Of a stretch of 56,523 bases of DNA, positions 5,292 to 51,490 are shown one piece after another. A program made the translations under genes and the position numbers. The stretch is from a virus (lineage: Duplodnaviria; Caudoviricetes): positions 1 to 56,523 of the IMG/VR virus record IMGVR_UViG_3300027749_000129; one strand, written 5' to 3'. Below the pieces are notes generated by a model. That model worked only from the letters and a program-made list of their open reading frames with translations, was not told the origin of the DNA and made no database searches. Position 1 is the stretch's first letter. Every line of letters starts with the position of its first letter.

Positions 5292-5666
5292 ATGACCCTT
5301 GATCCGCGATGCTGCCCCTGTGGTAATCCTCTCCGCCCCTTGCAGCGCAACTGCCTGTCGTGCCATGCCTTGTCCATGCGGAAATACCGTGCGTCCACCC
5401 CCTTGTCAGACGTCCAGCGGGCCAAGGACAATTGTCGGAGTTACGCGCATGTGTACCTTCGTCGTGGCAAGCTAACCCGTGAGCCATGTTCCGTCTGTTC
5501 AAACCCCGTGGCCCAGATGCATCATGCTGACTACGCGAAGCCTTTGCAGATAACGTGGTTGTGCAGACTTTGTCATTTGGCATTGCACAAGACTAAGGCA
5601 GTTGTGCCCAAGCGGCGGCTAGATGTTGCCCAGCGGGATCCTTTTGCACTAGAGACGTCTGTATGA
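5292..5666 (+). CDS. HNH-like zinc-binding endonuclease directly upstream of terL
   Basis: CSVC...HHADYAKPLQITWLCRLCHLALH; ATGA overlap with terL; in-frame ATG at 5292 chosen over 5067. Confidence 0.65.
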   Translation: MTLDPRCCPCGNPLRPLQRNCLSCHALSMRKYRASTPLSDVQRAKDNCRSYAHVYLRRGKLTREPCSVCSNPVAQMHHADYAKPLQITWLCRLCHLALHKTKAVVPKRRLDVAQRDPFALETSV

Positions 5667-8023
5667 CAAACCCTGCAATGTCTGTTGAGTCGGAGTCGGA
5701 GGTATTACGACTTGAGTTACGTCTGGCCCAGATAGAGGCCCAGAGCCGTGCGAAGCGGAACTTTATCGACTTTGCCAAATATGTGTGGCCTGAAGCGATA
5801 TTGGGTAACCACCACCAGAAGATGGCGTCGGCGTTTGACAGGATTGCCAATGGCACGTTGAAGCGTTTGATTGTCAACATGGCACCTCGGCACACGAAGA
5901 GTGAGTTCTCATCCTATCTGTTGCCTGCGTTTATCATGGGCCGTGGCCCGCGAACCAAGATCATTCAAGCGACGCACACGGGGGAGTTGGCGGTACGGTT
6001 TGGTCGTAAGGTGAGGAACCTTATGGATTCTGACTCGTACAAGCAGTTGTTTCCGGGATCGGAGTTGAAGGCTGACAGCAAGGCGGCGGGTCGGTGGGAC
6101 ACGAGTGAGGGTGGGGAGTACTTTGCTGTGGGTGTGGGGGGTGCGATGACGGGCCGTGGTGCGGACTTGTTGATTATTGACGACCCGCATTCGGAGCAGG
6201 ATGCGATGTCGGCATTGGCATTGGACAATGCGTGGGAGTGGTACAGCTCTGGTCCTCGGCAGCGATTGCAGCCGGGCGGGGCAATTGTGATTGTGATGTG
6301 CATGACGGGGGATACTCTGGTTTTGATGTCAGATGGGACACAGACGCCCTTATCTGAAATACGGCCCGGGGATAAGGTAGCTACTTTTGAAAAAGGGAGG
6401 CTAGCCACGGCTAGGGTTAATAACTGGAAGTCAAATGGTTATGACTCCATAGCCAAGATACAAACACAATCTGGTAGAATACTTCGTGCGAATGCAAGAC
6501 ATCCTTTTCTTGTAATGAATGCGGGAGTGTTGGAATGGAAACGAGTAAGCCAGTTGAGAGTGGGGGACGAACTTGTAGTATTGAAGGGTGCAATAGGCCT
6601 CCCAGATCAAAAACAAAACTTGGCAAGTGTGGACCCTGCCAAGCAAGTGCTAGTTACCACCGAAAAAACCCAGACGCTCCATACCACCCCCTTGGCCACC
6701 ACGGCAAATGGAAAGGAAAGACCTGCGGATGCGGTGAACCCGTGCTCTGCAAGGGGTTCTGTGTTAAATGCTACCGAGACCACTATCCCCGTTCAAAGAG
6801 AGCACCCGAGCAAAGCCGCGCCTTGCGTATCAAGTACCGGTATGGAATCACTGTTGGACAATATGAGTGGATGGTTCAAGAGCGTCAAAACCGTTGTGAT
6901 GTCTGCGGTGAAGCGCCTTCAGATAGAAACACTCGGGCGCATTGGAACGGCAAGCTTTGTATTGACCACGACCACGACACGGGAGCAGTGCGAGGACTCC
7001 TGTGCAATGACTGCAACCTCGCCATCGGATATGGCAAGACGCCAGAGGTACTCGAACGAGCTGCAGAGTATCTCCGACTTCACAATCGATCCAATAGCCT
7101 CGATCCTACCTGATGGTAAGGAAGAGGTTTTTGATGTTGAGATTGATAGGACAGGTAATTTCATTGCCAATGGGGTAGTTAGTCACAATACTCGATGGGG
7201 CACGAAGGACCTGACAGCGAGGCTGATCAAATCGCAGTCCAGCCATAATGCTGACCGCTGGGAAGTTATTGAATTCCCTGCCATTTTACCATCAGACAAG
7301 CCCCTTTGGCCAGAGTTTTGGAAGTATGAGGAGTTGATGGGGGTAAAGGCTTCGTTGTCCCCGCAGAAGTGGCAGGCGCAGTGGCAGCAGCAGCCGAGCA
7401 ATGACGAGGGGGCCATTCTGAAGCGGGAGTGGTGGAAGCGTTGGGAGAAGGATTACACGCCTAACCTTGAGTATGTGATTCAGTCGTATGACACGGCGTA
7501 CTCGAAGAAGGAGACGGCTGACTTTTCGGCGATCACGACGTGGGGGGTGTTTTACCCGGATCAGGACAGTGGGGCGCACATCTTGTTGTTGAACGTGAAG
7601 AAGGGCCGGTGGGACTTCCCGGAGTTGAAGCGTGTGGCGAAGGAAGAGTATATCTATTGGCAGCCGGACAATGTGTTGATCGAGGCCAAAGCAACGGGGA
7701 CCACGCTCCAGCAGGAGTTGAGGAAGATGGGGATTCCTGTGACGATGTACTCGCCGGGCGGCAGGCGCGCGGGTCAGGACAAGGTATCGAGGGCCAATGC
7801 GATTGCGACGATATTGGAGTCGGGGATGGTATGGGCACCGGACACTGACTGGGCGGACGAGTTGATTGAGGAGTGTGCGGCGTTCCCGAACGGGGACAAC
7901 GACGACTTGGTGGATTCGATGGTGATGGCGCTGATGCGTTTCAGGGCGGGTAACTTCATTAGTTTGTTGGTGGACGAGGACGATGTGCCGCGTAACGAAG
8001 GTATTGTACCGGAGTATTATTAA
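5663..8023 (+). CDS. terL: Terminase large subunit, intein-containing
   Basis: Walker A NMAPRHTKS, Walker B LLIIDDP, coupling motif IVIVM|TRW split by the intein, nuclease motifs SYDTA, IEAKATG, DDLVDS. Confidence 0.95.
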   Translation: MTNPAMSVESESEVLRLELRLAQIEAQSRAKRNFIDFAKYVWPEAILGNHHQKMASAFDRIANGTLKRLIVNMAPRHTKSEFSSYLLPAFIMGRGPRTKIIQATHTGELAVRFGRKVRNLMDSDSYKQLFPGSELKADSKAAGRWDTSEGGEYFAVGVGGAMTGRGADLLIIDDPHSEQDAMSALALDNAWEWYSSGPRQRLQPGGAIVIVMCMTGDTLVLMSDGTQTPLSEIRPGDKVATFEKGRLATARVNNWKSNGYDSIAKIQTQSGRILRANARHPFLVMNAGVLEWKRVSQLRVGDELVVLKGAIGLPDQKQNLASVDPAKQVLVTTEKTQTLHTTPLATTANGKERPADAVNPCSARGSVLNATETTIPVQREHPSKAAPCVSSTGMESLLDNMSGWFKSVKTVVMSAVKRLQIETLGRIGTASFVLTTTTTREQCEDSCAMTATSPSDMARRQRYSNELQSISDFTIDPIASILPDGKEEVFDVEIDRTGNFIANGVVSHNTRWGTKDLTARLIKSQSSHNADRWEVIEFPAILPSDKPLWPEFWKYEELMGVKASLSPQKWQAQWQQQPSNDEGAILKREWWKRWEKDYTPNLEYVIQSYDTAYSKKETADFSAITTWGVFYPDQDSGAHILLLNVKKGRWDFPELKRVAKEEYIYWQPDNVLIEAKATGTTLQQELRKMGIPVTMYSPGGRRAGQDKVSRANAIATILESGMVWAPDTDWADELIEECAAFPNGDNDDLVDSMVMALMRFRAGNFISLLVDEDDVPRNEGIVPEYY
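6299..7189 (+). mobile_element. Intein in TerL (297 aa)
   Basis: Block A CMTGDTLVLMSDG, block B LRANARHPF, block F/G VFDVEIDRTGNFIANGVVSHN followed by Thr; removal restores IVIVMTRWG. Confidence 0.92.
6535..7113 (+). CDS. Endonuclease VII-like homing endonuclease, overprinted in a shifted frame inside the TerL intein
   Basis: KYRYGITVGQYEWMVQERQNRCDVC...IDHDHDTGAVRGLLCNDCNLAIG; GGGAG at 6523-6527, 7 nt before ATG; offset +2 from the terL frame. Confidence 0.88.
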   Translation: METSKPVESGGRTCSIEGCNRPPRSKTKLGKCGPCQASASYHRKNPDAPYHPLGHHGKWKGKTCGCGEPVLCKGFCVKCYRDHYPRSKRAPEQSRALRIKYRYGITVGQYEWMVQERQNRCDVCGEAPSDRNTRAHWNGKLCIDHDHDTGAVRGLLCNDCNLAIGYGKTPEVLERAAEYLRLHNRSNSLDPT

Positions 8024-23837: not shown

Positions 23838-25699
23838 TGTTTGCGTCGAAGAACTTTTTTCAGGCTGGTGACACTGCTGTTGCAGTCGCGGGGTTTACTG
23901 ACTTTTATCCTGTTGCTGTGATGAACAATTCTACGGCTACGGGCGTTATGTTAGGGGTTGCGGTTAACTCTGCCGGTAAGTTTGTAGCCGTGGGGTATAC
24001 CAATTCTGCCTACCCCGTTGCCGCCTACTCCACCGATGGTACTACGTGGACTACTCCGGCTACAATGAATGGCTCTAGTGTTCTTGCCCGTATGTGGTCA
24101 GTAGCAGTTAACTCCGCTGGTAAATTTGTAGCCGTGGGGTATAACGGCTCCTTCTACCCCGTAGCCGCCTATTCGACTGATGGCACTACGTGGACTACCC
24201 CCGCGTTGATGAACGGCGTTAGTCTTGAGGCCCAAATGTACTCGGTAGCTGTTAACTCCGCTGGTAAATTTGTAGCAGTGGGGCTTAACAGTTCTGTCTA
24301 CCCCGTTGCCGCCTACTCCACCGATGGTACTACGTGGACTACCCCAGCTACGATGAACGGCTCTACTACGGCTGCCCAAATGTACTCGGTAGCTGTTAAC
24401 TCCGCTGGTAAGTTTGTAGCCGTGGGGTATAACAATTCTGGCTACCCCGTTGCCGCCTATTCAACTGATGGCACTACGTGGACTACCCCCGCTACGATGA
24501 ATGGCTCTACTACGGTTGCCTATATGTTCTCGGTAGCTGTTAACTCCGCCGGTAAATTTGTAGCGGTAGGTCGGAACAGTTCTGGCTATCCTGTTGCCGC
24601 CTACTCCACCGATGGTACTACGTGGACTACCCCAGCTACGATGAACGGCTCTACTACGGCTGCCAGTATGTCCTCGGTAGCTGTTAACTCCGCTGGTAAA
24701 TTTGTAGCCGTTGGGGCTGGCTCACCTAGTTTTGCCGTATCCGCATCCTCAACAGACGGCACTACGTGGACTACTCCAGTCCTAATGAACGGCACTAACT
24801 CACGATCCGCCGTTATGCGGTCGGTCGCTGTTAGCTCCGCCGGTAAGTTCATGGCGGTTGGCTATGACACCCAAAGCACTGTTGTACCTGCATCCGCTAA
24901 CGCTGTCCCTTCGTACGCCTATTCTTGGGACAGTGCTACCACTACTCGACCCCCCGGAAGTTTTACACAGCGCACCTTTGGGCTTTCCTCGTGGATAGCG
25001 CCCTCCTGTGTTGTGAGCGTTTCTGTCGTGGCTGTGGGTTCCGCCGGGTGTACCACTAACGGGGGTGGCGGTGGGGGGTTGGGGTACAAAAATAATTATT
25101 CCGTAACTGCTGGGAGTAGCTATACCGTTAGAGCAGGGTGCACCACTAGCCGCTGTTCATATTTTGTCAGCACGGCGGTTGTGAAGGGTGGGGGTGGAAC
25201 GGGCAGCACAGGTGGTACCCATACGGGTGACGGCGGGGGTAATGGGGGTACTGGCACTACTTGTAGCCCCGGCGGGGCAGGTGGGTATTCGGGGAATGGG
25301 GGTAATGGCGCTGTGGCCCCGGCTTCTGCGGGTTCTGCGGGGGCTGGCGGTGGGGGCGGAGGTGGAGGCACTCAAACTGTGGGTGTTGGTGCTGGTGGGG
25401 TGGCTCTGTTGGGGCAAGGGTCAAATGGCGCTGGCGCTGGGGCTTATGGGGCTACCCCGGGGGGTGGTGGTTCATGCGGGCAAGGTGGGACTTCCTGCTC
25501 TTCTGCGTCCTGCCACACCGGGAGCACTACAACGTTTAATCTTAGGTACTATGGGGGTAACGGGGGCAGCTATGGTGGGGGCGCAGGTGGCAGGGGAACC
25601 ACCAGCAACACCGCCGGTACTCCCGCACCGGGTGCAGTCCGTATGGTCTGGCCCGGCGCTACACGTACATTCCCAACAACCTGTGTGAGCTACCCATAA
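23837..25699 (+). CDS. Putative receptor-binding protein: seven-repeat Asp-box beta-propeller plus Gly-rich domain
   Basis: Seven VAV[NS]SAGKF units at about 48-aa spacing with STDGTTW; Gly-rich C-terminus ending GAVRMVWPG. Confidence 0.72.
   Translation: MFASKNFFQAGDTAVAVAGFTDFYPVAVMNNSTATGVMLGVAVNSAGKFVAVGYTNSAYPVAAYSTDGTTWTTPATMNGSSVLARMWSVAVNSAGKFVAVGYNGSFYPVAAYSTDGTTWTTPALMNGVSLEAQMYSVAVNSAGKFVAVGLNSSVYPVAAYSTDGTTWTTPATMNGSTTAAQMYSVAVNSAGKFVAVGYNNSGYPVAAYSTDGTTWTTPATMNGSTTVAYMFSVAVNSAGKFVAVGRNSSGYPVAAYSTDGTTWTTPATMNGSTTAASMSSVAVNSAGKFVAVGAGSPSFAVSASSTDGTTWTTPVLMNGTNSRSAVMRSVAVSSAGKFMAVGYDTQSTVVPASANAVPSYAYSWDSATTTRPPGSFTQRTFGLSSWIAPSCVVSVSVVAVGSAGCTTNGGGGGGLGYKNNYSVTAGSSYTVRAGCTTSRCSYFVSTAVVKGGGGTGSTGGTHTGDGGGNGGTGTTCSPGGAGGYSGNGGNGAVAPASAGSAGAGGGGGGGGTQTVGVGAGGVALLGQGSNGAGAGAYGATPGGGGSCGQGGTSCSSASCHTGSTTTFNLRYYGGNGGSYGGGAGGRGTTSNTAGTPAPGAVRMVWPGATRTFPTTCVSYP
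23957..24865 (+). repeat. 144-nt tandem coding repeat (6 full units plus a partial seventh)
   Basis: GTTAACTC at 23963, 24107, 24251 and onward, period 144 nt. Confidence 0.9.
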
Positions 25700-30223: not shown

Positions 30224-32088
30224 TGGCCTACTTCAAACTCACCCTTACCCCCGGCATCGATAAGCAGAACACTGAATACGGTGCTGAAGGTGGCTGGATT
30301 GACGGGGATAACATCCGTTTTCGTTATTCCCTGCCTGAGAAAATCGGAGGATGGGAAGATTTCACTGCCCCTATTCAGTATTTAGTGGGGGTAACGTCTG
30401 ATATTTTTACATGGAATAGCCTTGTGGGTATTCCTTACGCTATTGCAGGCACTAATCGCAAACTGTATGTGCTAACGGGTGGGGTTTGGTACGATATTAC
30501 TCCCATTCGAGCTACAACGGGCGTAGGCGACGTCACTTTTGCTGCCTCCACGGGTTCCGCTACTATTACAGTCACTGATAGCTCGCATGGCGCTATTAAA
30601 GGCGATTTTGTCACGTACAGCGGTGCAGCATCCCTTGGCGGCAACATTACTGCCGCTGTTTTAAACAGCGAATATGAAATAACGGCCATCCTTACTGCCA
30701 ATACCTACACGATTACCGCTCCTGTAAATGCTACTGCAGGGGATAGTGGTAATGGTGGGGGATCCGTGGTTGGTGCTTATCAAATCACGATTGGGCTTCC
30801 TGTCAGCTATTTTGATTTTGGCTGGGGTACCGGACCATGGGGCAGTGGTACGTGGGGTTCCCCACGTACATCTGGCAGTGGTATTGCGCTGTATTCACGC
30901 GTCTGGCAGTTCGATACCTACGGTGAAAATGTCGTATGCCAGTTGGCTAATGGTGCTATCTATTATTGGCAGATCGTCTCTGGTACAGGCACGCGTGCTG
31001 CGGTCCTCAGTGGTGCTCCTACCAAAAATACCTATGCCCTTGTCTCGACACCCGACCGCCACTTGGTTTGTTTGGGTACTGAGGACACCATTGGGGACCC
31101 TACAACACAGGATCCCATGTTTGTACGGTTTTCAAACCAAGAAGATATCACAAACTTTGTTGAATCAGCCACCAACACGGCGGGTGGACAACGGCTCACG
31201 GACGGTAACCACATCGTTACGGCCATACGCTCACGCGGCCAGATCCTGATATTTACCGATACCTCATTACACGGTATGCAATATATCGGCCCGCCCTATA
31301 CGTTTGGGTTCCAGCAGTTAGGTGCCAACTGCGGGTGTATCGGGCCTCACGCAGCAGTGGACGTAAACGGCGTCGCCTTCTGGATGGGCACCGACGCGTT
31401 CTACGTATTTGACGGTACGGTTAAAAAGCTGGCGTGTACTGTGCAGGATTTTGTATTTAAGAATTTGAATCAGGTGCAGAGTACGAAGTGTTTTGTGGGC
31501 CTTAATAGCCAATTCAACGAAGTAACGTTCTGGTACTGCTCATTGAATTCCGATTATATTGACCTGTGCGTAACGTTTAACTACCTTGAAAATGTATGGT
31601 CTACAGGCACAATGGACCGTACCGCATGGGTAAACTCGAACACGTACCCACGCCCCGTTGCTACTAAATACCTGCAGACCAGCACTGCTGCGACGATTAG
31701 TACGATTTACGGCCTAACGGCAGGCCGAACCATTGTTTACAGTCAGGAAACAGGGGCAGATGCTGCGGGTGAGCCGATAATTGCATACGTCAAGTCAGGG
31801 TATTTCGACATCGGCGATGGCGATAATATGCTCTATATGAAGCGTTTTATCCCTGATTTTAGGAATCAAGTCGGAGATCTACTGGTGCATTTATTCTTGC
31901 GCCAATACCCACAGGCCACTGCCAGTTATAGCTCCCTCGACCCCTACATAATCACGCCTACCACTGAAAAAGTGGACACTCGTGCACGCGGTAGACAGAT
32001 ATCAATCCGCATCGAGAGTGATGACCTGTACGCAACGTGGCGCTTTGGTACGATGCGTGTGGACATTCAACCTGATGGCTTGAGGTGA
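30223..32088 (+). CDS. Tail tubular protein B / DNA stabilization (P22 gp10-like) protein
   Basis: PGIDKQNT, RFRYSLPEKIGGW, VRFSNQED, AFWMG, RARGRQI, C-terminal DIQPDGLR. Confidence 0.72.
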   Translation: MAYFKLTLTPGIDKQNTEYGAEGGWIDGDNIRFRYSLPEKIGGWEDFTAPIQYLVGVTSDIFTWNSLVGIPYAIAGTNRKLYVLTGGVWYDITPIRATTGVGDVTFAASTGSATITVTDSSHGAIKGDFVTYSGAASLGGNITAAVLNSEYEITAILTANTYTITAPVNATAGDSGNGGGSVVGAYQITIGLPVSYFDFGWGTGPWGSGTWGSPRTSGSGIALYSRVWQFDTYGENVVCQLANGAIYYWQIVSGTGTRAAVLSGAPTKNTYALVSTPDRHLVCLGTEDTIGDPTTQDPMFVRFSNQEDITNFVESATNTAGGQRLTDGNHIVTAIRSRGQILIFTDTSLHGMQYIGPPYTFGFQQLGANCGCIGPHAAVDVNGVAFWMGTDAFYVFDGTVKKLACTVQDFVFKNLNQVQSTKCFVGLNSQFNEVTFWYCSLNSDYIDLCVTFNYLENVWSTGTMDRTAWVNSNTYPRPVATKYLQTSTAATISTIYGLTAGRTIVYSQETGADAAGEPIIAYVKSGYFDIGDGDNMLYMKRFIPDFRNQVGDLLVHLFLRQYPQATASYSSLDPYIITPTTEKVDTRARGRQISIRIESDDLYATWRFGTMRVDIQPDGLR

Positions 32089-32149
32089 CATGTATACCGA
32101 TCCTAAAATAAGGTGTATACTAAAGGCTCTTCTACTTAAGGGGCTTAGT

Positions 32150-32788
32150 ATGGGTAAATTTATAGATCGCGTAGGGCAGCGGTTTGGGAAACTAGTAGTA
32201 ATTGCGCGCAGCGGCACTAACGTACACAAGCAAGTTATGTGGCTATGTACTTGTGATTGTGGAGAAAAAACCACTGTAGTTTCTGGGAGTTTGGTGACAG
32301 GTAATACTACTTCCTGTGGATGCATCCCCCCAAACTTTAAACACGGAGGGTGGAATAAGTCTTCCTACAACACATGGCGGGCAATGATGCGGCGTTGTTA
32401 TAACCCCATAGATAAGGACTACGCGCGATACGGGAGTAAAGGGGTTACTGTATATGCTCTTTGGCATGATTATGCCGCTTTCGCAATAGCTGTTGGTGAG
32501 CCGTCAGGCACTGAAACCCTTGACCGGATTGACACAACGGGTAACTACGAGCCTAACAATGTGCGCTGGGCAAGCCCTACCGCGCAAGCTAGAAACCAGT
32601 GCATGTCAAAGCTAAATAAGACAGGTTTCGCTGGTGTTTTATTCCACGGTGGACGCTATTACGCAGCGATAACAGTGCAAAAGAAAAAGTTTTATTCCAA
32701 AGTATTTGGGACAGCAGAAGAAGCTGCTGCCGCTAGAAAAGGATTAGAGATGCTGCATTGGGGAGTCTTAAATGAGCAAAATCACTAA
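32150..32788 (+). CDS. Free-standing HNH homing endonuclease with AP2-like C-terminal domain
   Basis: GQRFGKLVV..CTCDCG..SCGC, RCYNP..YGSKG, TLDRIDTTGNYEPNNVRWA, FGTAEEAAAAR (track start 32090). Confidence 0.85.
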   Translation: MGKFIDRVGQRFGKLVVIARSGTNVHKQVMWLCTCDCGEKTTVVSGSLVTGNTTSCGCIPPNFKHGGWNKSSYNTWRAMMRRCYNPIDKDYARYGSKGVTVYALWHDYAAFAIAVGEPSGTETLDRIDTTGNYEPNNVRWASPTAQARNQCMSKLNKTGFAGVLFHGGRYYAAITVQKKKFYSKVFGTAEEAAAARKGLEMLHWGVLNEQNH

Positions 32789-33382: not shown

Positions 33383-35341
33383 ATGGCTGACGCAATGCAG
33401 GGCATTATGGCCCTACCCCAAGGTGCAACATCCCAAGCGGCAAATGACCCGCGTGTAATGGCTGCTGTCGAACAGATGCGCAAGCAGGTATCGCCGCAGG
33501 ACGTGCACTCCCAGTTGCTGGATTCAGCCGCTGAGGTAGACCCCGCGTCCGTTGCCAAGTTCAAGTCTGAGCTGCAGGGGCTAGAACTTCCAGCCGAAGT
33601 GCTAGACATGCTCAATACGCTGGTTGAGTCTGTTTTAGACTCCCCAAATGACTACCCGGCTATCCGAGCCAAATATCTGGCACAGGGCATCCCAGAAGAC
33701 TTACTTCCGCCTACCTTTGATGCACTGTTTTTCGGTGCGCTCAATATGGCAATCGACCAGCTTAGGGCAAATACTACTTCTGCACCAGCCGCGAACACCG
33801 GACCACGGACCGCTGCTGAGATCCTTACCCACAGACCCGATCAACAGGCCCCTGAAATGCCCGCCCCGGGCATGGCAAGAGGTGGGATTGCAACCCTCAA
33901 ACCAATGGTTGCTGCGATGGCTCATTTTGGTCGTAATGGCGATACGATGTTGGCGCATATCAATCCCGCTGAAGCACGGATGTTACGTAAACACGGGGGC
34001 AGCGGTACGATCAACCCTAGAACGGGTCTTCCTGAATTCTCGTGGCTTGGTGACATTTTCAAAAAAGTTGGCCACGCGGTTAAATCCTTTGCCTCTAGCA
34101 CAATTGGCAAACTTGTCATAGGCACTGCACTGTTTATGTTTGCAGGCCCTGCTGCGGCGAGTTTTTTAAACGCAGCAGAAGGCGGCATCGCTGCTGCAGG
34201 CATCAGTGGTTTTGTCAGCGGAGCGGGAACCGCGCTGCTGGGTGGTAGTAACCTGAAGACTGCGTTGAAAGCCGGTGCCATTGGCGGCATAACAGCAGGT
34301 GCTGTTAAAGGCGTAACTGGCGCTGTAGGTGCAGCCAAAACCCCTACTACAGGCACTACTGCGGCTACAGGTGCTGGAGAAGCCACGTCAGATACGATTA
34401 GATCCGCGCTTCCTGACGTGGGTGTAACTGCAAGTGATGCGGCTAAAGCTGCCGTGGATTTTGGACCAGATGTTCAAAGGGGCATTGAAAGTTTAACTTC
34501 ACCCACAAATGTAGGGTTTATGGCTAGCCCTGAAGCAATGGCCGCTGCTCAGAGACAAACGGCAGTACTCGCATCACAAGCTGCGCCTATGGCACAGGCA
34601 GCTACCACTCCTGCGTTTATGACTAGCCCACAAGGTATGGCTGCAGGCCAACAACAGGCTGCTAAAGTTGCCGCGCTTACTCCCGCTCCGGGATTTATAG
34701 ACAACTTAAAAGCAACCTTTACTCCAGACAGTAGTGTGGGTTTAGACGCCCGCATTGGGAGCCTTAATAAGGCATTTAATCCAAACGAAATACAAGCCGC
34801 AGGTGAACGGGCGGCTAAAAAGGCATATACCGATATGTTGGCAGACACTGGGTCTAAAGAATTAGCCATGCAAGCCTTTAAAGATGCAACTCCGGGAATG
34901 TTAGCCAAATATGGCCCTGCACTGGGCGCGGGACTCGGTATTGCGGCATTGGCAGGGGGCTTCGACCAGATACCTTCCGAAATGCCCCCCGGCTTTACGG
35001 GTCCTACAGGCAAAGAGTACCTTGCGCAACACCCTGAACTACAGCTAAATTTCGGTGGCACACGCGTTACCTCCGCCTACAATCCCTATATGTCAATGTA
35101 CCGTGCTCCAGTTCAAGAACCGGTTCGCTCGGCAACAGGGGGAGCAATACACTATCCTCGCAAAAACGGTCCAATCAGTGGCCCCGGTACGGGAACCTCG
35201 GACCAAGTACCGGCGATGTTGTCCGATGGGGAGTTTGTCTTTACGGCGAAAGCGGTCCGTGCTGCTGGGAAAGGTTCCCGGCGCGCTGGTGCAAAACGCA
35301 TGTTGGCCCTCATGAAACATCTGGAGAAACAACATGGCTGA
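33383..35341 (+). CDS. Putative internal virion (ejection) protein
   Basis: Ala/Gly-rich with hydrophobic segments; GRNGDTMLAHINPAE and GPGTGTSDQVPAMLSDGEFV motifs. Confidence 0.65.
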   Translation: MADAMQGIMALPQGATSQAANDPRVMAAVEQMRKQVSPQDVHSQLLDSAAEVDPASVAKFKSELQGLELPAEVLDMLNTLVESVLDSPNDYPAIRAKYLAQGIPEDLLPPTFDALFFGALNMAIDQLRANTTSAPAANTGPRTAAEILTHRPDQQAPEMPAPGMARGGIATLKPMVAAMAHFGRNGDTMLAHINPAEARMLRKHGGSGTINPRTGLPEFSWLGDIFKKVGHAVKSFASSTIGKLVIGTALFMFAGPAAASFLNAAEGGIAAAGISGFVSGAGTALLGGSNLKTALKAGAIGGITAGAVKGVTGAVGAAKTPTTGTTAATGAGEATSDTIRSALPDVGVTASDAAKAAVDFGPDVQRGIESLTSPTNVGFMASPEAMAAAQRQTAVLASQAAPMAQAATTPAFMTSPQGMAAGQQQAAKVAALTPAPGFIDNLKATFTPDSSVGLDARIGSLNKAFNPNEIQAAGERAAKKAYTDMLADTGSKELAMQAFKDATPGMLAKYGPALGAGLGIAALAGGFDQIPSEMPPGFTGPTGKEYLAQHPELQLNFGGTRVTSAYNPYMSMYRAPVQEPVRSATGGAIHYPRKNGPISGPGTGTSDQVPAMLSDGEFVFTAKAVRAAGKGSRRAGAKRMLALMKHLEKQHG

Positions 35342-47325: not shown

Positions 47326-48824
47326 TGGCCATCCATAAAATATTCGGTCCCCCCGGATCCGGCAAGACTACATACCTGCTCGACATTGTTGAGCAGGAAC
47401 TTGCTGTTGTGCACCCAATGTCCATTGGATACTTTGCTTTCACACGCAAGGCATCCCTCGAGGCAAAGGAACGTGCCACTGCAAAGTTTCCGCACCTAAA
47501 TCCTGATACCGACTTCCCGTGGTTTCGCACGCTCCACAGTCTGGCGTACCAGTGCCTTGGCGTCAGCAACAAAGACATCATGAAGCCTGAGAATTACCGT
47601 GAGTTTGCCGCACAGGCCGGTATTACCATGGGGCCACTTGTCAGTGATGAAGACGATTGTGTCGTCCACGCCGATAATCCAATACTGAACGAGATCAACA
47701 TCGCGCGCATCAAGGGCCTTGATCTGCACACACACTACAACCAAAGCCAGATGGGCATCGAGTGGCACCACTTTGAATACGTCGAGCGCGCGTATCGCCA
47801 CTTCAAAGAGAACGCAGGACTGCTGGACTTTACCGATCTGCTGGAATTGATCAACGCGCAACCTGAGCGACTGCCCAAGCTAACCGTGGTCATCCTTGAC
47901 GAGGCACAGGACTTGTCCGCACTGCAGTGGACCCTTGTACAGAACCTTATGAAGAGGGCTACTCGCTCATTCATTGCAGGCGATGACGATCAGGCTGTTT
48001 ACATGTGGGCAGGTGCAGACGTAGACAGCTTTCTGAATTGCGAGGGCGATATCCGCGTCCTGCAGCAATCGTATCGTGTACCTGCACGCGTCCATGCGCT
48101 AGCCACTCAAGTCGTACAACGCATTCGTAAGCGTCAACCTAAATTCTGGAACTCCCGTGAGGTAGAGGGCAATATCACCTATTATCGCGACTACATGCAT
48201 GTGGATATCTCTACCGGAGAGTGGCTGATACTGGCGTCAGCCAATTACATGCTTAATGATCTGTATGGCTGGATAAAGTCACAGGGAATACTCTTCGAGC
48301 GTCACGGACAACGGAGCATTGCTGAAGCCACACTCGCCGCCGTAATCGGCTGGGAGTCCCTGCGCAAGGGACGATCCATAAACTACCCCACGCTCAAACA
48401 CATTTATAAATACCTTAATTCAGATTTCATCGCACGCGGGCATAAGACACTACGCGAGGCGGATCCAGAAGCACTCTTTACGCTTGATGATTTAAAAGCA
48501 CGCCATGGACTATTAACTGATAGCATCTGGCACGAAGCACTGACTAAGATCGGTGCAGAAAAGATAGACTACATCATTGCCATATTACGCCGGGGCACGA
48601 AACTCACTGGCAAGGTGCAAGTAAAACTGTCCACGATCCACGGAGCAAAAGGGGGAGAGGCGGATAACGTCTTGCTCTTCACGGACCTGAGCCCAAAGTT
48701 TGCTAAGGACTATGACCATAACGCGGATGATATAAATCGACTGCTGTACGTGGGAATTACCCGTACACGGGAGACACTGCACATCATCCATCCCAAGGAC
48801 ATACGAAAGGCCTTTAGATTTTGA
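47325..48824 (+). CDS. UvrD/Rep-like superfamily 1 helicase
   Basis: GPPGSGKTT, RTLHS, LDEAQD, GDDDQA, QSYR, STIHGAKGGE, YVGITR. Confidence 0.9.
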   Translation: MAIHKIFGPPGSGKTTYLLDIVEQELAVVHPMSIGYFAFTRKASLEAKERATAKFPHLNPDTDFPWFRTLHSLAYQCLGVSNKDIMKPENYREFAAQAGITMGPLVSDEDDCVVHADNPILNEINIARIKGLDLHTHYNQSQMGIEWHHFEYVERAYRHFKENAGLLDFTDLLELINAQPERLPKLTVVILDEAQDLSALQWTLVQNLMKRATRSFIAGDDDQAVYMWAGADVDSFLNCEGDIRVLQQSYRVPARVHALATQVVQRIRKRQPKFWNSREVEGNITYYRDYMHVDISTGEWLILASANYMLNDLYGWIKSQGILFERHGQRSIAEATLAAVIGWESLRKGRSINYPTLKHIYKYLNSDFIARGHKTLREADPEALFTLDDLKARHGLLTDSIWHEALTKIGAEKIDYIIAILRRGTKLTGKVQVKLSTIHGAKGGEADNVLLFTDLSPKFAKDYDHNADDINRLLYVGITRTRETLHIIHPKDIRKAFRF

Positions 48825-51490
48825 AAACTAACATACCGCTGTTCCCGATCCAGTCCGAATGGCTCCCGCCACTGGATTTTCCTGACTTGTCCGAAGCAAA
48901 AGAAATCGCTATCGACTTGGAGACCTGTGATCCCAACATGGAGAAGTACGGACCCGGTTGGCCACGCAAGGATGGTTTTGTCGTGGGCTACGCTGTTGCA
49001 GTGGATGGATGGAAGGGTTATTACCCTATCGCGCACGCAGGCGGCGGTAATTTAGACAAACGAATCGTCGAGCGTTGGATCACCAAGATCCTACTACTGC
49101 CCTGCGACAAGGTCATGCACAACGCTGCCTACGATGTTGGCTGGCTTCGCGCATCAGGCTTCACGGTCAACGGACGTATTATCGACACCATGATCGCTGC
49201 CGCATTGATAGACGAGAACCGGTTCAGTTATGCGCTCAACAGTCTGGGCTACGATTACCTTAAAGAGACCAAGTCAGAGCAGGGGCTACGAGACGCTGCA
49301 GCCGATTTCGGATTGCACCCTAAGAAGGAGCTGTGGAAACTCCCCGCGATGTATGTGGGTGCTTACGCGGAACAGGATGCTGCTCTTACGCTAAAGCTCT
49401 GGCATCACTTCCAAATCCTAATGCGCGACGAAGAAGTCGAATCCATTTTCAATCTGGAAACAGAGCTATTGCCTATCCTGATCGATATTACCTTTCGCGG
49501 TATCCGGTTTGACCGTGACAGAGCCATAGCTTTGATTACCGAAATGAAACACAAAGAGAAAAAGTTATTAACGTACATCAAGGATGTTTCAGGGGTACCC
49601 GTGGACATGTGGGCCGCTGCAACAATCGCTAAAGCCTTCGACAAACTAAACATCCCCTACCCACAGACTACGACCGGACTGCCCAGCTTTACCAAGTCAT
49701 TCCTTGATACGTGCGAGCATCCTATTGCCAAGGCCATCATGGAAGCACGCGAGCTGAACAAGACCTACGGCACGTTCCTGCAGCCCTACATCGATTTCTC
49801 TGCCCACGATGGGCGCATCCACGCGCATATCAACCAACTGCGCTCTGATGACGGCGGCACGGTGACAGGCAGGCTATCCATGGCATCGCCGAACCTCCAA
49901 CAAGTGCCAGCCCGGCACGAAATCATCGGACCCATGGTGCGCTCACTCTTTCTGCCAGAAGAAGGACAGCACTGGGCAGCCTGTGACTTTTCATCACAAG
50001 AGCCACGCTTGTTGGTGCATTACGCTAACCTGCTCCAGCTTGACGGAGCACGCGACATGGCCCAAGCCTACATCACAGATATCGATACCGACTTCCATCA
50101 GATGATCGCCGACATGGCAGGCATCAAACGCAAGGTAGCTAAAACGATTGGCTTGGGTCTTTGCATTGCGCAGGGCGAAATGGTCCTTACCGATAGTGGC
50201 CTTGTTCCAATCCAACAGGTAACGGAATTGCATAAAGTATGGGATGGGGTAGAATGGGTATCACATGAGGGAGTGTTTTTCATGGGAACCAAAGAGGTTA
50301 TTACCTATGGCAATCTCACAGCAACACCGGACCATGACGTCTGGACAAACGAATCAGGGAAAATTTCTCTCCGGCTCGCAGCATCAAGATTGGATGCACT
50401 TGTTTCCACCGGAAATGCGGAACAGGCAATTCGGTATGTGGACCGTGATCAGCAGGGTGGTTCAGCGAACAGGAAAACATCAGTACGCGAAAGTGCGATG
50501 CGTTTGTGGGGCCGAGGATTGGAAGCTCTTGGACAACCTCAAAAGTGGAAAGTCAACTATGTGCCGACCATGCACTATGCGCAAGCAGCATGCGGGACGA
50601 GGGCACTTGATTGTAAAATCCATCGAGATGAAGTCACTGCAAAGAAGGGCTACGGCGGCTATGCAGAGATGCCAAAACCCCAAGGACAGAGGCTGGAAAC
50701 ACTATGGTGGCCGTGGAATTCAATGCGAGTTTTCCTCCGTAAAGGCCTTTGTGGAATATCTGCTGTCCTTGCACCCTGCTTCGGACTGGTTGGGAATGAC
50801 CATAGACCGGACCAACAACGAGGGAAACTACGCAGTGGGAAACCTCCGAATAGCTTCTTACCGAGAAAACAACCTGAACAGAAGAAATACGCGAAAGTCT
50901 ATGACATCATAAACGCTGGCCCCCGCCATCGGTTTACCGTGTCTAATGTCTTGGTGTCTAACTGCTACGGCATGGGCAAGGGCAAACTCGCCGTACAGCT
51001 CGGCCTACCCGTAGAGGATGCCTCCGAACTGATCACCACCTTTCACCGTAAGGTACCGTTCCTAAAGGGCACCATAGACGCCGTGATGAAGGCCATCGAA
51101 CGCCCCGCCAGTGGGGGCAGCATACGCACGCTACTCGGACGCAAATGCCGCTTCCCACTCTGGGAACCCACCGAATGGGGCGTACACAAGGCACTGCCGT
51201 ACGAAGAAGCCACCGCGAAATACGGCCCACGGATCAAGCGTGCAATGACCTACAAGGGGCTTAACAAACTCCTGCAAGGCAGTGCTGCTGACCAGACTAA
51301 AGCTGCAATGGTCGCGCTCCACAAAGCGGGTTTCACTCTATTATTACAGGTACATGACGAGATTGCGGTCAGTGTGTCCACGCCTGAAGAAGCACGCACC
51401 GCTGCTGACATAATGGTCGCCGCAGTCAAGCTCACCGTGCCCTCCAAGGCCGATATGGAAATAGGTCCCTCATGGGGCAGCGCAAAATAA
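48821..51490 (+). CDS. polA: Family A DNA polymerase with 3'-5' exonuclease, intein-containing
   Basis: Exo motifs IDLET, HNAAYD, YAEQDA; TGRLS..PNLQQ; motif A DFSSQEPR; motif B KTIGLGL|CYG; motif C QVHDE. Confidence 0.95.
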   Translation: MKTNIPLFPIQSEWLPPLDFPDLSEAKEIAIDLETCDPNMEKYGPGWPRKDGFVVGYAVAVDGWKGYYPIAHAGGGNLDKRIVERWITKILLLPCDKVMHNAAYDVGWLRASGFTVNGRIIDTMIAAALIDENRFSYALNSLGYDYLKETKSEQGLRDAAADFGLHPKKELWKLPAMYVGAYAEQDAALTLKLWHHFQILMRDEEVESIFNLETELLPILIDITFRGIRFDRDRAIALITEMKHKEKKLLTYIKDVSGVPVDMWAAATIAKAFDKLNIPYPQTTTGLPSFTKSFLDTCEHPIAKAIMEARELNKTYGTFLQPYIDFSAHDGRIHAHINQLRSDDGGTVTGRLSMASPNLQQVPARHEIIGPMVRSLFLPEEGQHWAACDFSSQEPRLLVHYANLLQLDGARDMAQAYITDIDTDFHQMIADMAGIKRKVAKTIGLGLCIAQGEMVLTDSGLVPIQQVTELHKVWDGVEWVSHEGVFFMGTKEVITYGNLTATPDHDVWTNESGKISLRLAASRLDALVSTGNAEQAIRYVDRDQQGGSANRKTSVRESAMRLWGRGLEALGQPQKWKVNYVPTMHYAQAACGTRALDCKIHRDEVTAKKGYGGYAEMPKPQGQRLETLWWPWNSMRVFLRKGLCGISAVLAPCFGLVGNDHRPDQQRGKLRSGKPPNSFLPRKQPEQKKYAKVYDIINAGPRHRFTVSNVLVSNCYGMGKGKLAVQLGLPVEDASELITTFHRKVPFLKGTIDAVMKAIERPASGGSIRTLLGRKCRFPLWEPTEWGVHKALPYEEATAKYGPRIKRAMTYKGLNKLLQGSAADQTKAAMVALHKAGFTLLLQVHDEIAVSVSTPEEARTAADIMVAAVKLTVPSKADMEIGPSWGSAK
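50162..50962 (+). mobile_element. Intein in PolA motif B (267 aa)
   Basis: Block A CIAQGEMVLTDSG, block B LTATPDH, block F/G VYDIINAGPRHRFTVSNVLVSN followed by Cys; removal restores AKTIGLGLCYGMG. Confidence 0.92.
50307..50912 (+). CDS. HNH-family homing endonuclease, overprinted in a shifted frame inside the PolA intein
   Basis: RQFGMWTV..RCVCG..LKSGKSTMC, RCQNPKDRGWKHYGGRGI, TIDRTNNEGNYAVGNLR..N; AGAGGT before ATG 50307 (longest ORF starts 50265); offset +1 from the polA frame. Confidence 0.85.
   Translation: MAISQQHRTMTSGQTNQGKFLSGSQHQDWMHLFPPEMRNRQFGMWTVISRVVQRTGKHQYAKVRCVCGAEDWKLLDNLKSGKSTMCRPCTMRKQHAGRGHLIVKSIEMKSLQRRATAAMQRCQNPKDRGWKHYGGRGIQCEFSSVKAFVEYLLSLHPASDWLGMTIDRTNNEGNYAVGNLRIASYRENNLNRRNTRKSMTS

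What the first reader, a model, noticed from the sequence alone, without database searches (positions are those of the whole stretch)
50162..50962. Second, unrelated intein (PolA motif B) with an out-of-frame HNH endonuclease
Seen: a 267-aa intein (CIAQG...LTATPDH...VYDI...VSN/C+1) sits in the O-helix between KTIGLGL and CYG. Its middle is motif-less in-frame. The +1 frame (50265/50307-50912) encodes an HNH-type protein (FG..V..C.CG, RC.NP..YGGRGI, IDR.NN.GNY..GN.R). The nested ORF overlaps block B at its start and block F at its stop, so conserved splicing residues are dual-coded. The penultimate residue is Ser rather than the usual His. Inference: an independent instance of the same architecture as the TerL intein, with a different nuclease family and frame offset.
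Basis: partly seen in the sequence, partly recalled or inferred. Interest (0 to 1): 0.88.

Follow-up and report, generated by a model that had tools for sequence, protein, structure and literature searches.

The report
Polymerase intein hiding an out-of-frame endonuclease
A self-splicing protein insert (intein) in this lake phage's DNA polymerase gene also carries, in a reading frame shifted by one base, a separate gene for a likely DNA-cutting "homing" enzyme; the layout is real and kept by selection, but this kind of intein was already described in 2025.

Summary
polA (48821-51490) carries a 267-aa intein (50162-50962) in motif B. A 201-aa ORF (50307-50912) lies inside it in the +1 frame and matches phage "HNH endonuclease" family phrog_374 (E 1.2e-28).

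- **Not an artefact.** Both frames are open in 4 of 4 close viral relatives. Contigs from an independent run show no indels.
- **Selection switches frame.** pN/pS is 0.23 in the polA frame over the N-splicing part. In the core it is 0.31 for the nested frame against 1.13 for polA, and 0.18 for polA at the C-end.
- **The polA frame is kept open.** Synonymous resampling of the nested gene left it open in 0 of 3000 trials.
- **Folds agree.** The polA-frame middle has no predicted structure, and its ends match solved inteins. The nested protein folds confidently.
- **The layout is widespread.** Of 55 related intein loci, 49 carry this gene out of frame and none in frame.

The architecture is in print for other nuclease families (Gosselin et al. 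2025 preprint; Phillips et al. 2026). This scan has also noted it before on other DNA: 147 notes in at least 138 genomes. Verdict: new member of a known kind.

The parts
48821..51490 (+). polA gene (family A DNA polymerase with 3'-5' exonuclease domain), 889 codons plus stop, uninterrupted in its own frame
   Evidence: ORF list. Pfam DNA_pol_A E 1.5e-49 and DNA_pol_A_exo1 E 3.5e-08.
50162..50962 (+). Intein, 267 aa, inserted in polymerase motif B between ...AKTIGLGL and CYGMGK
   Evidence: Junctions read. The intein-free homologue (phage DSL-LC04) reads AKTIGLGL-M-YGMGK. The AF2 model has top Foldseek hits that are all inteins, prob 1.00.
50162..50416 (+). N-terminal splicing region (residues 1-85: Cys1, KVWDGVEW, block B T55-P-D-H58 at 50324-50335)
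   Evidence: pLDDT is 89-96 per 10-residue block. pN/pS in the polA frame is 0.23 over 50162-50306, with 77% of third positions variable.
50417..50872 (+). polA-frame spacer (about residues 86-237). It is translated as part of the precursor but is constrained only to stay free of stops.
   Evidence: pLDDT <50 for 86-237. No family hit. pN/pS in the polA frame is 1.13. 0 stops against 12.8 expected.
50873..50962 (+). C-terminal splicing region (blocks F/G: KVYDIINAGPRHRFTVSNVLVSN, ending Ser266-Asn267)
   Evidence: pLDDT 91-95. pN/pS in the polA frame is 0.18, with 83% of third positions variable. V246, D248, N251, G253, F258, T259, V265 and N267 are invariant in 25 inteins.
50963..50965 (+). 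+1 extein nucleophile Cys (Met in the intein-free allele)
50293..50298 (+). Shine-Dalgarno-like AGAGGT, 8 nt upstream of the nested start
   Evidence: GAGGT, AGGAGGT or AGGT lies before the ATG at +145 nt in all of window and L006-L015 (11 of 11; L009 has only AGGT).
50307..50912 (+). Nested gene in the +1 frame: 201-aa HNH-like (PacI-like beta-beta-alpha-Me) endonuclease, stop TAA 50910-50912. The frame is open from 50253, and an upstream ATG at 50265 has no SD.
   Evidence: phrog_374 E 1.2e-28. Start conserved. pN/pS in the +1 frame is 0.31 in the core. AF2 mean pLDDT 81.
50307..50414 (+). Doubly constrained overlap: the nested N-terminal leader (MAISQQHRTMTSG...) is read over intein block B and the strand after it
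   Evidence: Variable columns are only 25/14/31% at the three codon positions. pN/pS is 0.36 (polA frame) and 0.42 (+1 frame). The leader has pLDDT <50 in the nested model.
50424..50897 (+). Folded core of the nested protein (residues 40-197): beta-barrel plus Cys4 (C65, C67, C86, C89), then RCxNP...YGGRGI and IDR...Y...N...N
   Evidence: Invariant columns are listed. pLDDT is mostly >90. PacI 3m7k_A gives Z 6.3 over model residues 100-199.

Best explanation
This is a mobile intein whose homing nuclease is a separate, overprinted gene.

- Ribosomes reading polA translate straight through a 267-aa intein.
- About 85 N-terminal and 30 C-terminal residues form the Hint splicing domain. The roughly 150 residues between them are an unstructured spacer that is selected only to contain no stop codon.
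- The intein then splices itself out and leaves Cys in motif B of the polymerase.
- Independently, ribosomes start at ATG 50307, behind AGAGGT and inside the intein's block-B codons. They read the +1 frame to make a 201-aa PacI-like HNH (beta-beta-alpha-Me) nuclease.
- That nuclease is inferred to cut or nick intein-less polA alleles of co-infecting phages near the motif-B DNA. Repair then copies the whole cassette into the cut allele (homing).

Shown here: both frames are open, selection switches frame, the splicing ends have an intein fold, the nested protein folds, and the cassette is far more similar between two phages than their polymerases are. Inferred only: internal initiation, splicing activity, nuclease activity and its target.
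For: 1. Both frames are open in the window and in 4 of 4 close viral relatives whose nested protein is 61-89% identical.
2. Selection switches frame.
   - Variable columns by polA codon position 1/2/3 are 37/19/77% in the N-splice part, 83/48/40% in the core and 38/24/83% in the C-splice part.
   - pN/pS in the polA frame against the +1 frame is 0.23/1.50, 1.13/0.31 and 0.18/1.15 for the same three parts.
3. The window against L001, both short forms, differs in the core at 43/11/12 sites by polA position. Most changes are therefore silent in the nested frame.
4. The polA frame is kept open by codon choice. It stayed open in 0 of 3000 synonymous resamples for each of 5 sequences, with 12.8-22.3 stops expected.
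5. The nested protein matches phrog_374 at E 1.2e-28. It is 26% identical (E 3e-11) to the free-standing HNH gene of the same family at 32090-32788.
6. The nested protein model has mean pLDDT 81. PacI is both the best structural match (Z 6.3, rmsd 3.6 A, 85 residues) and the best sequence match (E 0.16).
7. In the intein model, residues 1-85 and 240-267 are confident and 86-237 are below pLDDT 50. The top Foldseek hits are all inteins (best E 3.5e-3, prob 1.00).
8. An SD-like motif precedes the conserved ATG in 11 of 11 members of the close clade.
9. Mobility is supported.
   - The intein-free DSL-LC04 PolA is 74.9% identical in the exteins, as close as the intein-bearing relatives at 70-75%.
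   - Between the window and L006 the intein is 86-95% identical in DNA, against 64-72% for the exteins.
   - Third-position differences are 20 of 79 in the singly coded splice regions against 178 of 325 in the flanking exteins (Fisher p 2.5e-6).
10. Of 55 loci with a related intein, 49 hold the same nuclease family out of frame: 44 in +1, 5 in +2, 0 in frame and 0 antisense. The host frame is open across it in 48 of 49.
11. Intein N-part divergence and nuclease divergence correlate (Mantel r 0.66; 0 of 2000 permutations reach it).
Against: - No Pfam HNH or intein model matches either frame.
- The first His of the HNH motif is Arg (D167-R168).
- The PacI likeness is weak: Z 6.3 is below the tool's caution line of 8, and the sequence E-value is 0.16.
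- The window's nested gene is a short form. It lacks about 54 codons that code a C-terminal domain present in the 269-271-aa forms and in free-standing relatives, so DNA recognition may be impaired.
- In an independent, very close variant (run X7), 7 of 9 core substitutions fall on nested-frame position 2, and 8 of 9 change the nested protein while 6 of 9 are silent in polA (one-sided binomial p 0.008). This runs opposite to the deeper pattern and could mean recent relaxation or diversification.
- The penultimate intein residue is Ser, not His.
- Expression, splicing and cleavage are untested, and no run on record as RNA was listed.
Confidence: 0.85

Rival explanations
1. The architecture is real, but in this particular lineage the nested nuclease is a decaying or repurposed remnant. 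The short form has lost its C-terminal DNA-binding domain, so the intein now persists by vertical descent alone.
For: - A 162-nt deletion relative to L004 and L010-L015 removes a domain shared with free-standing relatives.
- The very close X7 variant shows 8 of 9 core substitutions changing the nested protein.
Against: - Short forms compared with each other still show strong silent-site excess in the nested frame: window-L001 43/11/12 and L002-L003 77/28/19.
- The short-form cassette is much more alike between the window and L006 than their polymerases are (Fisher p 2.5e-6), which points to transfer after the deletion.
- No stop has arisen in 5 short-form sequences.
Confidence: 0.1
2. The nuclease is not made from its own start. 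Instead it is made by ribosomal +1 frameshifting from the polA frame, giving an N-extein/N-intein/HNH fusion.
For: The two frames overlap for about 110 nt with both constrained. Internal initiation inside a translated gene is unproven.
Against: - An SD-like motif at the right spacing before a conserved ATG is present in 11 of 11 close relatives.
- Reading the 5-way alignment, I saw no shared slippery run between block B and the core. This was an inspection, not a formal scan.
- The polA frame has no stop or obvious pause codon there.
- Free-standing relatives start about 10 residues before the same core.
Confidence: 0.03
3. Assembly or sequencing frameshift artefact: the true intein has an in-frame HNH domain.
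For: None found.
Against: - The same two-frame layout is present in 4 of 4 close and 49 of 55 wider loci from other samples.
- Contigs of run X7 from another study cover 50000-51100 with substitutions only and no inserted or deleted letters.
- A random double shift would leave about 13 stops in the polA frame.
- No protein of 353-2000 aa with this domain was found (0 of 239 candidates scored; weak evidence).
Confidence: 0.01

Closest known systems
Non-canonical actinobacteriophage inteins with a homing endonuclease in a separate frame or strand (Gosselin, Arsenault & Gogarten, bioRxiv 10.1101/2025.01.02.630785; abstract, sections 8 and 15 and 'find' passages read)
   Same: - A bona fide splicing domain sits in the host frame.
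- The nuclease ORF lies between the splicing blocks in another frame, with the host frame open through it.
- The nuclease is related to free-standing phage HEGs.
- The proposed origin is invasion of an intein by a free-standing HEG.
- Their 'endonuclease VII-like HEN in frame 3' of TerL inteins is the same layout as this genome's TerL intein.
   Different: - In the passages read, they list HNH only as an in-frame domain. Their out-of-frame and antisense types are EndoVII-like, LAGLIDADG and VSR-like.
- Here the out-of-frame gene is a PacI-like HNH of phrog_374, the host gene is a family A polymerase (motif B), and the phage is an uncultured freshwater one.
- Their supplements could not be seen and might list more.
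Cyanobacterial dnaX intein with an out-of-frame LAGLIDADG endonuclease (Phillips, DeSimone & Gogarten, bioRxiv 10.64898/2026.09.14.751524; abstract and section 17 read)
   Same: - An overlapping ORF inside an intein, with frame-dependent dN/dS: low in the nuclease frame and high in the host frame over the overlap.
- Mini-intein relatives exist.
- A secondary invasion origin is proposed.
   Different: The nuclease is LAGLIDADG in a +2 ORF, the host is a cellular (cyanobacterial) gene, and the paper does not mention HNH (0 occurrences).
ShiLan-type hidden HNH insertions in phage DNA methylases (Arsenault, Gosselin & Gogarten 2025, Genes, PMC11855218; abstract and section 19 read)
   Same: An out-of-frame HNH gene lies inside an in-frame, stop-free insertion of a phage gene, with its stop at the very end of the insertion.
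   Different: - ShiLan has no detectable splicing blocks and is thought to stay in the protein. Here Cys1, TxxH, the terminal Asn and +1 Cys are present and an intein fold is predicted.
- ShiLan has no recognisable RBS and a GTG start. Here an ATG follows AGAGGT.
Fractured genes: split inteins with a free-standing endonuclease gene between the halves (Dassa et al. 2009, NAR, PMC2677866; abstract and 'find' passages read)
   Same: A free-standing-type nuclease gene with its own start lies between the N and C intein parts, and short coding overlaps occur at the nuclease 3' end.
   Different: There the host gene is broken into two ORFs and the intein acts in trans, with GIY-YIG or Vsr-like nucleases. 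Here polA is one continuous ORF, and the nuclease gene is wholly overprinted on it.
PacI restriction endonuclease (PDB 3m7k/3ldy), an HNH enzyme with Tyr in place of the His general base (review PMC4081073, 'find' passages read)
   Same: - PacI is the best structural match (Z 6.3) and the best sequence match (E 0.16).
- The shared motif is (V/I)DR...GY.P.N.RLA, with Arg where HNH has His.
- Both have Cys4 zinc sites.
   Different: - PacI is a 142-aa restriction enzyme.
- The likeness is weak and covers only residues 100-199 of the model.
- Whether the invariant Tyr175 matches PacI's catalytic Tyr was not checked.

Membership tests
Intein (Hint-domain protein-splicing element, class 1) | N-terminal nucleophile (Cys/Ser) as first residue | tested here: met
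   Cys1 at 50162-50164. It is invariant in 25 of 25 aligned relatives.
Intein (Hint-domain protein-splicing element, class 1) | Block B TxxH | tested here: met
   T55-P-D-H58. T55 and H58 are invariant in 25 of 25.
Intein (Hint-domain protein-splicing element, class 1) | C-terminal Asn followed by Cys/Ser/Thr at +1 | tested here: met
   N267 is invariant in 25 of 25. The +1 residue is Cys at 50963.
Intein (Hint-domain protein-splicing element, class 1) | Penultimate His (usual, not obligatory; this rule is recalled) | tested here: not met
   Ser266 (VSN). The alignment shows VSN in this clade and VHN or VAN in others.
Intein (Hint-domain protein-splicing element, class 1) | Hint fold | tested here: met
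   The AF2 ends have pLDDT 89-96. Foldseek hits through rank 34 are intein or Hint-type domains (mostly inteins, plus a bacterial intein-like domain and a Vint domain): Mtu RecA, Ssp DnaB, Npu DnaE, gp41-1 and others, prob 0.94-1.00, best E 3.5e-3, TM to target up to 0.64.
Intein (Hint-domain protein-splicing element, class 1) | Match to curated intein/Hint sequence models | tested here: not met
   No Pfam family at E <= 1 for the 267-aa sequence. Only PHROG hits to residues 20-78.
Intein (Hint-domain protein-splicing element, class 1) | In-frame insertion at a conserved site of a host protein, with intein-free homologues | tested here: met
   The insertion is in motif B of PolA. Phage DSL-LC04 PolA reads AKTIGLGLMYGMGK uninterrupted.
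Intein (Hint-domain protein-splicing element, class 1) | Protein splicing activity | not testable with these tools
   Needs expression of the precursor.
HNH / beta-beta-alpha-Me endonuclease | Match to a curated HNH sequence family | tested here: inconclusive
   phrog_374, phrog_3377, phrog_2081 ('HNH endonuclease') and phrog_8790 ('restriction endonuclease') match at E 1.2e-28 to 1.8e-07. No Pfam HNH model matches at E <= 10.
HNH / beta-beta-alpha-Me endonuclease | First His of the H-N-H triad (general base) | tested here: not met
   The position reads D167-R168. R168 is invariant in 19 of 19 and D167 is conserved in at least 90%. It aligns with VDR of PacI. According to review PMC4081073, PacI uses Tyr as the general base.
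HNH / beta-beta-alpha-Me endonuclease | Metal-ligand Asp/Asn and the Asn of the motif | tested here: inconclusive
   N179 and N191 are invariant and D167 is nearly invariant. Their roles are assigned only by analogy.
HNH / beta-beta-alpha-Me endonuclease | Beta-beta-alpha-Me fold | tested here: inconclusive
   PacI 3m7k_A ranks first by VIA-align: Z 6.3, rmsd 3.6 A, 85 residues. Foldseek found nothing at E <= 0.001.
HNH / beta-beta-alpha-Me endonuclease | Nuclease activity | not testable with these tools
   Needs purified protein.
Non-canonical intein with out-of-frame homing endonuclease (Gosselin et al. 2025) | Splicing domain in the host frame plus a nuclease ORF in another frame between the splicing blocks, with the host frame open | tested here: met
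Non-canonical intein with out-of-frame homing endonuclease (Gosselin et al. 2025) | Purifying selection in the nuclease frame | tested here: met
   pN/pS is 0.31 (+1 frame) against 1.13 (polA frame) in the core.
Non-canonical intein with out-of-frame homing endonuclease (Gosselin et al. 2025) | Nuclease type as described there for the out-of-frame class (endonuclease VII-like) | tested here: not met
   The PolA nested gene matches an HNH PHROG and not Endonuclease_7. The TerL nested gene of the same genome is Endonuclease_7.
Homing element (functional definition) | Sporadic presence among close host-gene alleles, with the element more similar than its flanks | tested here: met
   The intein-free allele is at 74.9% extein identity. 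Between the window and L006 the intein is 86-95% identical in DNA against 64-72% for the exteins (Fisher p 2.5e-6).
Homing element (functional definition) | Cleavage of the empty allele and copying of the element by repair | not testable with these tools
   Needs an assay.
Fractured gene with split intein (Dassa et al. 2009) | Host gene split into two ORFs | tested here: not met
   polA is one ORF of 889 codons.

The most novel reading that the evidence does not exclude
This intein may be one twig of a large, old lineage in which a Hint splicing domain and a PacI-like HNH gene travel as one overprinted cassette.

- In 49 of 55 related loci the nuclease is out of frame (44 in +1, 5 in +2). It is never in frame, and the rest are mini-inteins.
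- The lineage occupies many sites in family A polymerases (31 of 39 hosts scanned) and SF2 helicases (8 of 39).
- Splicing-domain and nuclease divergence are correlated.
- The cassette has slid 5 codons within motif B between near relatives.

On this reading, overprinting is not a passing accident on the way to an in-frame domain. It would be a stable, selected way to express a homing nuclease separately in amount and timing from an essential host protein. The polA-frame spacer would then be a long natural example of a peptide selected only to lack stops.
Probability: 0.45. Interest if true: 0.55.

Novelty: new member of a known kind. Interest (0 to 1): 0.35.

Why it matters
- **Gene annotation.** Gene callers would label this intein a 'mini-intein with a long linker' and miss a complete nuclease gene. 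Nested relatives appear in protein databases only as unnamed fragments (13 close hits with no source name beyond 'hypothetical protein').
- **Intein evolution.** It adds an HNH-type, PacI-like nuclease and a family A polymerase host to the short list of inteins with out-of-frame nucleases. This supports the 'splicing first, nuclease invades later' view of intein origins argued in the 2009 and 2025 papers.
- **Dual coding.** It gives a clean natural case of about 600 nt where one frame is selected for protein sequence and the other only for the absence of stops. That is useful for testing methods that detect overlapping genes.
- **Possible tools.** The short 201-aa nuclease and its 113-residue splicing domain could interest makers of intein or nicking-enzyme tools, but nothing here shows activity.

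Tried and rejected
**Family and fold searches**
- Pfam on both frames gave nothing for the intein or the nested ORF, even at E <= 10.
- Foldseek of the nested model against the PDB gave no match at E <= 0.001. HNH enzymes appear only at E 0.6-1.9.
- A search for longer proteins holding this nuclease domain, which would reveal in-frame fusions, scored none of 239 candidates. The tool calls this weak evidence.

**Signals in the DNA**
- The promoter/terminator scan of 49800-51100 found no plus-strand sigma-70-like site, and the counts were at shuffle level. An internal promoter for the nested gene is therefore not supported by that scan.
- The 29-nt stretch 50231-50259 is identical in the 5 closest sequences. 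In the wider set its silent sites vary, so I dropped it as a general DNA signal.
- Other same-strand nested ORFs in the window (25188-25688, 30728-31249, 33648-34121) have no PHROG hit. I did not pursue them.

**Expression**
- No RNA holder was listed by the look-up of sequencing runs. This says nothing about expression.

**Literature**
- Searches were 'intein/HNH/overlapping/reading frame', 'intein/out-of-frame/homing endonuclease', 'intein/alternative reading frame/endonuclease' and 'non-canonical inteins'.
- In the listings and passages read, none describes an out-of-frame HNH inside a bona fide intein.
- Supplements were closed, and Gorbalenya 1998 (PMC147447) is not held, so the claim 'not in print' is limited to these searches.

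- Complex prediction, the search of protein representatives and the protein-atlas search were not used, because no open question needed them.

Full report
**What is there.** The window is a 56.5-kb virus record, estimated about 95% complete.
- ORF 48821-51490 (889 aa) is a family A DNA polymerase. Pfam DNA_pol_A matches at E 1.5e-49 in two stretches, with a 3'-5' exonuclease domain.
- The polymerase match is interrupted in motif B. After ...RKVAKTIGLGL comes Cys (TGC 50162), then 267 residues ending ...VLVSN (AAC 50960-50962), then Cys-Tyr-Gly-Met-Gly.
- The insert has Cys1, block B T55-P-D-H58, a 'KVYDIINAGPRHRFTVSNVLVSN' C-terminus and a +1 Cys.
- In the +1 frame the same DNA is open from 50253 to a TAA at 50910-50912.

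**Is it an intein?**
- Pfam finds no intein model in the 267 residues.
- An AlphaFold2 model built with 25 related sequences is sharply two-part. Residues 1-85 and 240-267 have block means of pLDDT 89-96. Residues 86-237 are below 50 with almost no secondary structure.
- Foldseek with this model returns intein or Hint-type domains through rank 34, mostly inteins (Mtu RecA, Ssp DnaB, Npu DnaE, gp41-1, DnaX mini-intein and others; prob 0.94-1.00, best E 3.5e-3).
- An intein-free homologue exists. The PolA of phage DSL-LC04 (OR003939.1) reads AKTIGLGL-M-YGMGK without interruption and is 74.9% identical to the window's exteins.
- Relatives L027, L029 and L032 are 139-140-aa mini-inteins of the same family, with the N and C parts joined directly. 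The middle 150-200 residues are therefore an insertion into a self-sufficient splicing domain.
- The penultimate Ser is shared by the whole close clade.

**Is the nested ORF a gene?**
- *Family.* Its product matches phrog_374 'HNH endonuclease' at E 1.2e-28, plus related PHROGs. Pfam gives nothing.
- *Paralogue.* It is 26% identical (E 3e-11) to the free-standing gene at 32090-32788 of the same genome, which hits phrog_374 at E 8.6e-66.
- *Fold.* An AlphaFold2 model has mean pLDDT 81, with the core (about residues 40-190) mostly above 90 and the first 30 residues disordered.
- *Conserved residues.* Invariant residues in 19 sequences are four Cys (65, 67, 86, 89), R121-C122, Y133-G134, G137, R168, Y175, N179 and N191.
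- *Closest solved structure.* This is the HNH restriction enzyme PacI, which ranks first by structure (Z 6.3, rmsd 3.6 A, 85 residues) and first by profile search (E 0.16; 'IDRIDNDGNYEPGN' against 'VDRSDSFEGYSPQN').
- *Limits.* Both scores are weak. Their agreement is suggestive, not proof.
- *Arg for His.* PacI is reported to use Tyr, not His, as the general base (review PMC4081073, passages read). That makes an Arg-for-His variant plausible as a nuclease.

**Artefact or selection?** Four related viral contigs encode the nested protein at 89, 71, 69 and 61% identity. In all four, both the polymerase frame and the +1 frame are open.

The 5-way DNA alignment is gap-free apart from one 162-nt and one 3-nt indel. 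Results by segment are:

| Segment (window coordinates) | Variable columns at polA codon position 1/2/3 | pN/pS, polA frame | pN/pS, +1 frame |
|---|---|---|---|
| N-splicing part, 50162-50306 | 37/19/77% | 0.23 | 1.50 |
| Overlap, 50307-50414 | 25/14/31% | 0.36 | 0.42 |
| Core, 50415-50872 | 83/48/40% | 1.13 | 0.31 |
| C-splicing part, 50873-50962 | 38/24/83% | 0.18 | 1.15 |

- Selection therefore hands over from the polA frame to the +1 frame and back. A short stretch is constrained in both frames.
- Resampling synonymous codons of the nested protein gives a mean of 12.8-22.3 stops in the polA frame. That frame stayed open in 0 of 3000 trials for each of the five sequences. The observed count is 0 in all five, while the third frame has 5-15 stops.
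- Contigs of an independent run (X7, another study) cover 50000-51100 with substitutions only and no inserted or deleted letters.

**How is it read?**
- The ATG at 50307 is conserved, and the gene callers behind 11 of the 13 close database relatives chose it. The exceptions are P0011, which is N-truncated, and P0013, which starts 4 residues earlier.
- It lies in the Tyr-Gly codons five residues before block B.
- It is preceded at 8 nt by AGAGGT. GAGGT, AGGAGGT or AGGT holds that place in 11 of 11 members of the close clade.
- Free-standing relatives begin about 10 residues before the 'FG.W/L.V' strand. The 36-residue leader of the nested form is probably just the price of starting inside block B, and it is disordered in the model.
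- Internal initiation is inferred, not shown. No run on record as RNA holds the stretch.

**Is it mobile?**
- Between the window and L006 the exteins are 64-72% identical in DNA, but the intein is 86-95% identical.
- In the singly coded splice regions third positions differ at 20 of 79 codons, against 178 of 325 in the flanking exteins (Fisher p 2.5e-6).
- The intein-free DSL-LC04 allele is as close to the window's polymerase (74.9%) as the intein-bearing ones are (70-75%).
- Both facts fit recent transfer of the cassette between diverged phages.
- The same intein sits five codons apart in near relatives. It is AKTIGLGL|C...N|CYGMG in the window and L006, and AKT|C...N|CSLGMMYGMG in L007-L009, with CTLAIMYGAG after the intein in L010 and L012.

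**How general is it?**
- A pattern search seeded with two N-terminal intein motifs returned 55 viral loci. The set is therefore ascertained on the intein, not on the nuclease.
- Six-frame ORFs of these loci were scored with an HMM of the nested protein. 49 of 55 carry it inside the intein, with the worst E-value 3.6e-25. 44 are in +1, 5 in +2, 0 in the host frame and 0 antisense. The host frame is open across it in 48 of 49, the exception being L054.
- The other six are mini-inteins (L027-L029, L032, L053, L060).
- Several loci are near-duplicates: 45 unique among 49 sequences, the window included and L054 left out.
- Of 39 non-redundant host ORFs that I chose from the 56, 31 match DNA_pol_A and 8 match ResIII (7 Helicase_C, 6 DEAD).
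- Divergence of the first 48 intein residues, which lie upstream of the nested start at +145 nt in the close clade, correlates with divergence of the nuclease core (Mantel r 0.66; 0 of 2000 permutations reach it). Shared ancestry of the host genomes also contributes to this correlation.

**Results against or unexplained.**
- The window's nested gene is a short form. The 269-271-aa forms (L004, L010-L015 and database proteins) have 54 more codons, which code a domain also seen in free-standing relatives.
- Short forms still show a strong silent-site excess among themselves: window-L001 43/11/12 and L002-L003 77/28/19 by polA codon position.
- In the very close X7 variant, 7 of 9 core substitutions fall on nested position 2. 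Eight of 9 change the nested protein while 6 of 9 are silent in polA (one-sided binomial p 0.008). With nine sites this may be noise, recent relaxation or diversification. I cannot tell which.
- The HNH assignment lacks a Pfam match and the canonical first His.

**What is known.**
- My searches found that inteins with nucleases in another frame or strand are in print.
- Gosselin, Arsenault & Gogarten (bioRxiv 2025; abstract, sections 8 and 15 and passages read) describe antisense LAGLIDADG, antisense VSR-like and 'frame 3' endonuclease VII-like genes in actinophage inteins. They list HNH only in frame.
- Phillips et al. (bioRxiv 2026; abstract and section 17) describe a +2 LAGLIDADG ORF in the cyanobacterial dnaX intein, with the same frame-dependent dN/dS.
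- Arsenault et al. (Genes 2025; abstract and section 19) describe an out-of-frame HNH in a methylase insertion that has no splicing blocks.
- Dassa et al. 2009 describe split inteins with free-standing nuclease genes between the halves.
- In what I could read, an out-of-frame HNH inside a bona fide intein is not described. Supplements were closed, and Gorbalenya 1998 is not held.
- This scan has already noted the layout many times on other DNA: 147 notes in at least 138 genomes. These include polymerase, helicase and terminase inteins, and follow-up agents reached the same verdict.

**Verdict.** It is a new member (HNH-like nuclease, family A polymerase host, freshwater phage) of a kind described in 2025-26, and one twig of a large lineage. 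Interest is moderate to low for a single instance. The lineage-level pattern, in which the nuclease is never in frame, is the more interesting open point.

Noticed in passing
window 5663-8023, nested 6535-7113: The TerL gene (phrog_38, E 1.6e-98) carries a second nested same-strand ORF in its +2 frame. That ORF is an endonuclease VII protein (Pfam Endonuclease_7 E 3.5e-19; phrog_2914 E 1.7e-27). This is the layout reported for actinophage TerL inteins in the 2025 preprint, so one genome holds two dual-frame inteins with different nucleases.
   Followed up: partly
window 32090-32788: A free-standing 232-aa gene of the same PHROG family as the nested one (phrog_374, E 8.6e-66). It is 26% identical to the nested protein (E 3e-11) and keeps the C-terminal extension that the nested short form lacks.
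   Followed up: partly
window 50231-50259: A 29-nt stretch coding HKVWDGVEWV is identical, silent sites included, in the five closest sequences, although nearby third positions vary at 77%. In the wider set the silent sites do vary. The promoter scan found no plus-strand site there.
   Followed up: partly
window 50141-50161 and 50963-50980; L007-L015 junctions: The same intein lineage sits five codons apart within polymerase motif B in near relatives: after AKTIGLGL in the window, L006 and L022, and after AKT in L007-L015. The cassette has apparently moved to a neighbouring site.
   Followed up: partly
window 50415-50872 versus contigs of run X7: A roughly 97%-identical variant from another study differs in the nuclease core mostly at nested-frame second positions: 7 of 9 sites, with 8 of 9 changing the nested protein. 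This is opposite to the deeper pattern.
   Followed up: partly
L054:2881-3523; L046:1371-2501; L025:947-1936: L054 has the host frame broken by a stop inside the intein while a partial HNH-like ORF continues, so it is a possible decaying or fractured case. L046 has a second HNH-like ORF in the +2 frame elsewhere in the same 1250-aa polymerase ORF. L025 has a free-standing HNH-like ORF ending just where its polymerase ORF begins.
   Followed up: no
L053 and L060 versus L055-L059: At one insertion site (after TGKTGILS), some contigs hold a roughly 150-aa mini-intein and others hold the full intein with a 360-aa +2-frame ORF. Full and mini forms therefore coexist at the same site.
   Followed up: no
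window 25188-25688, 30728-31249, 33648-34121: Three further same-strand ORFs of 157-173 aa are nested inside longer ORFs. None has a PHROG hit at E <= 0.001.
   Followed up: partly
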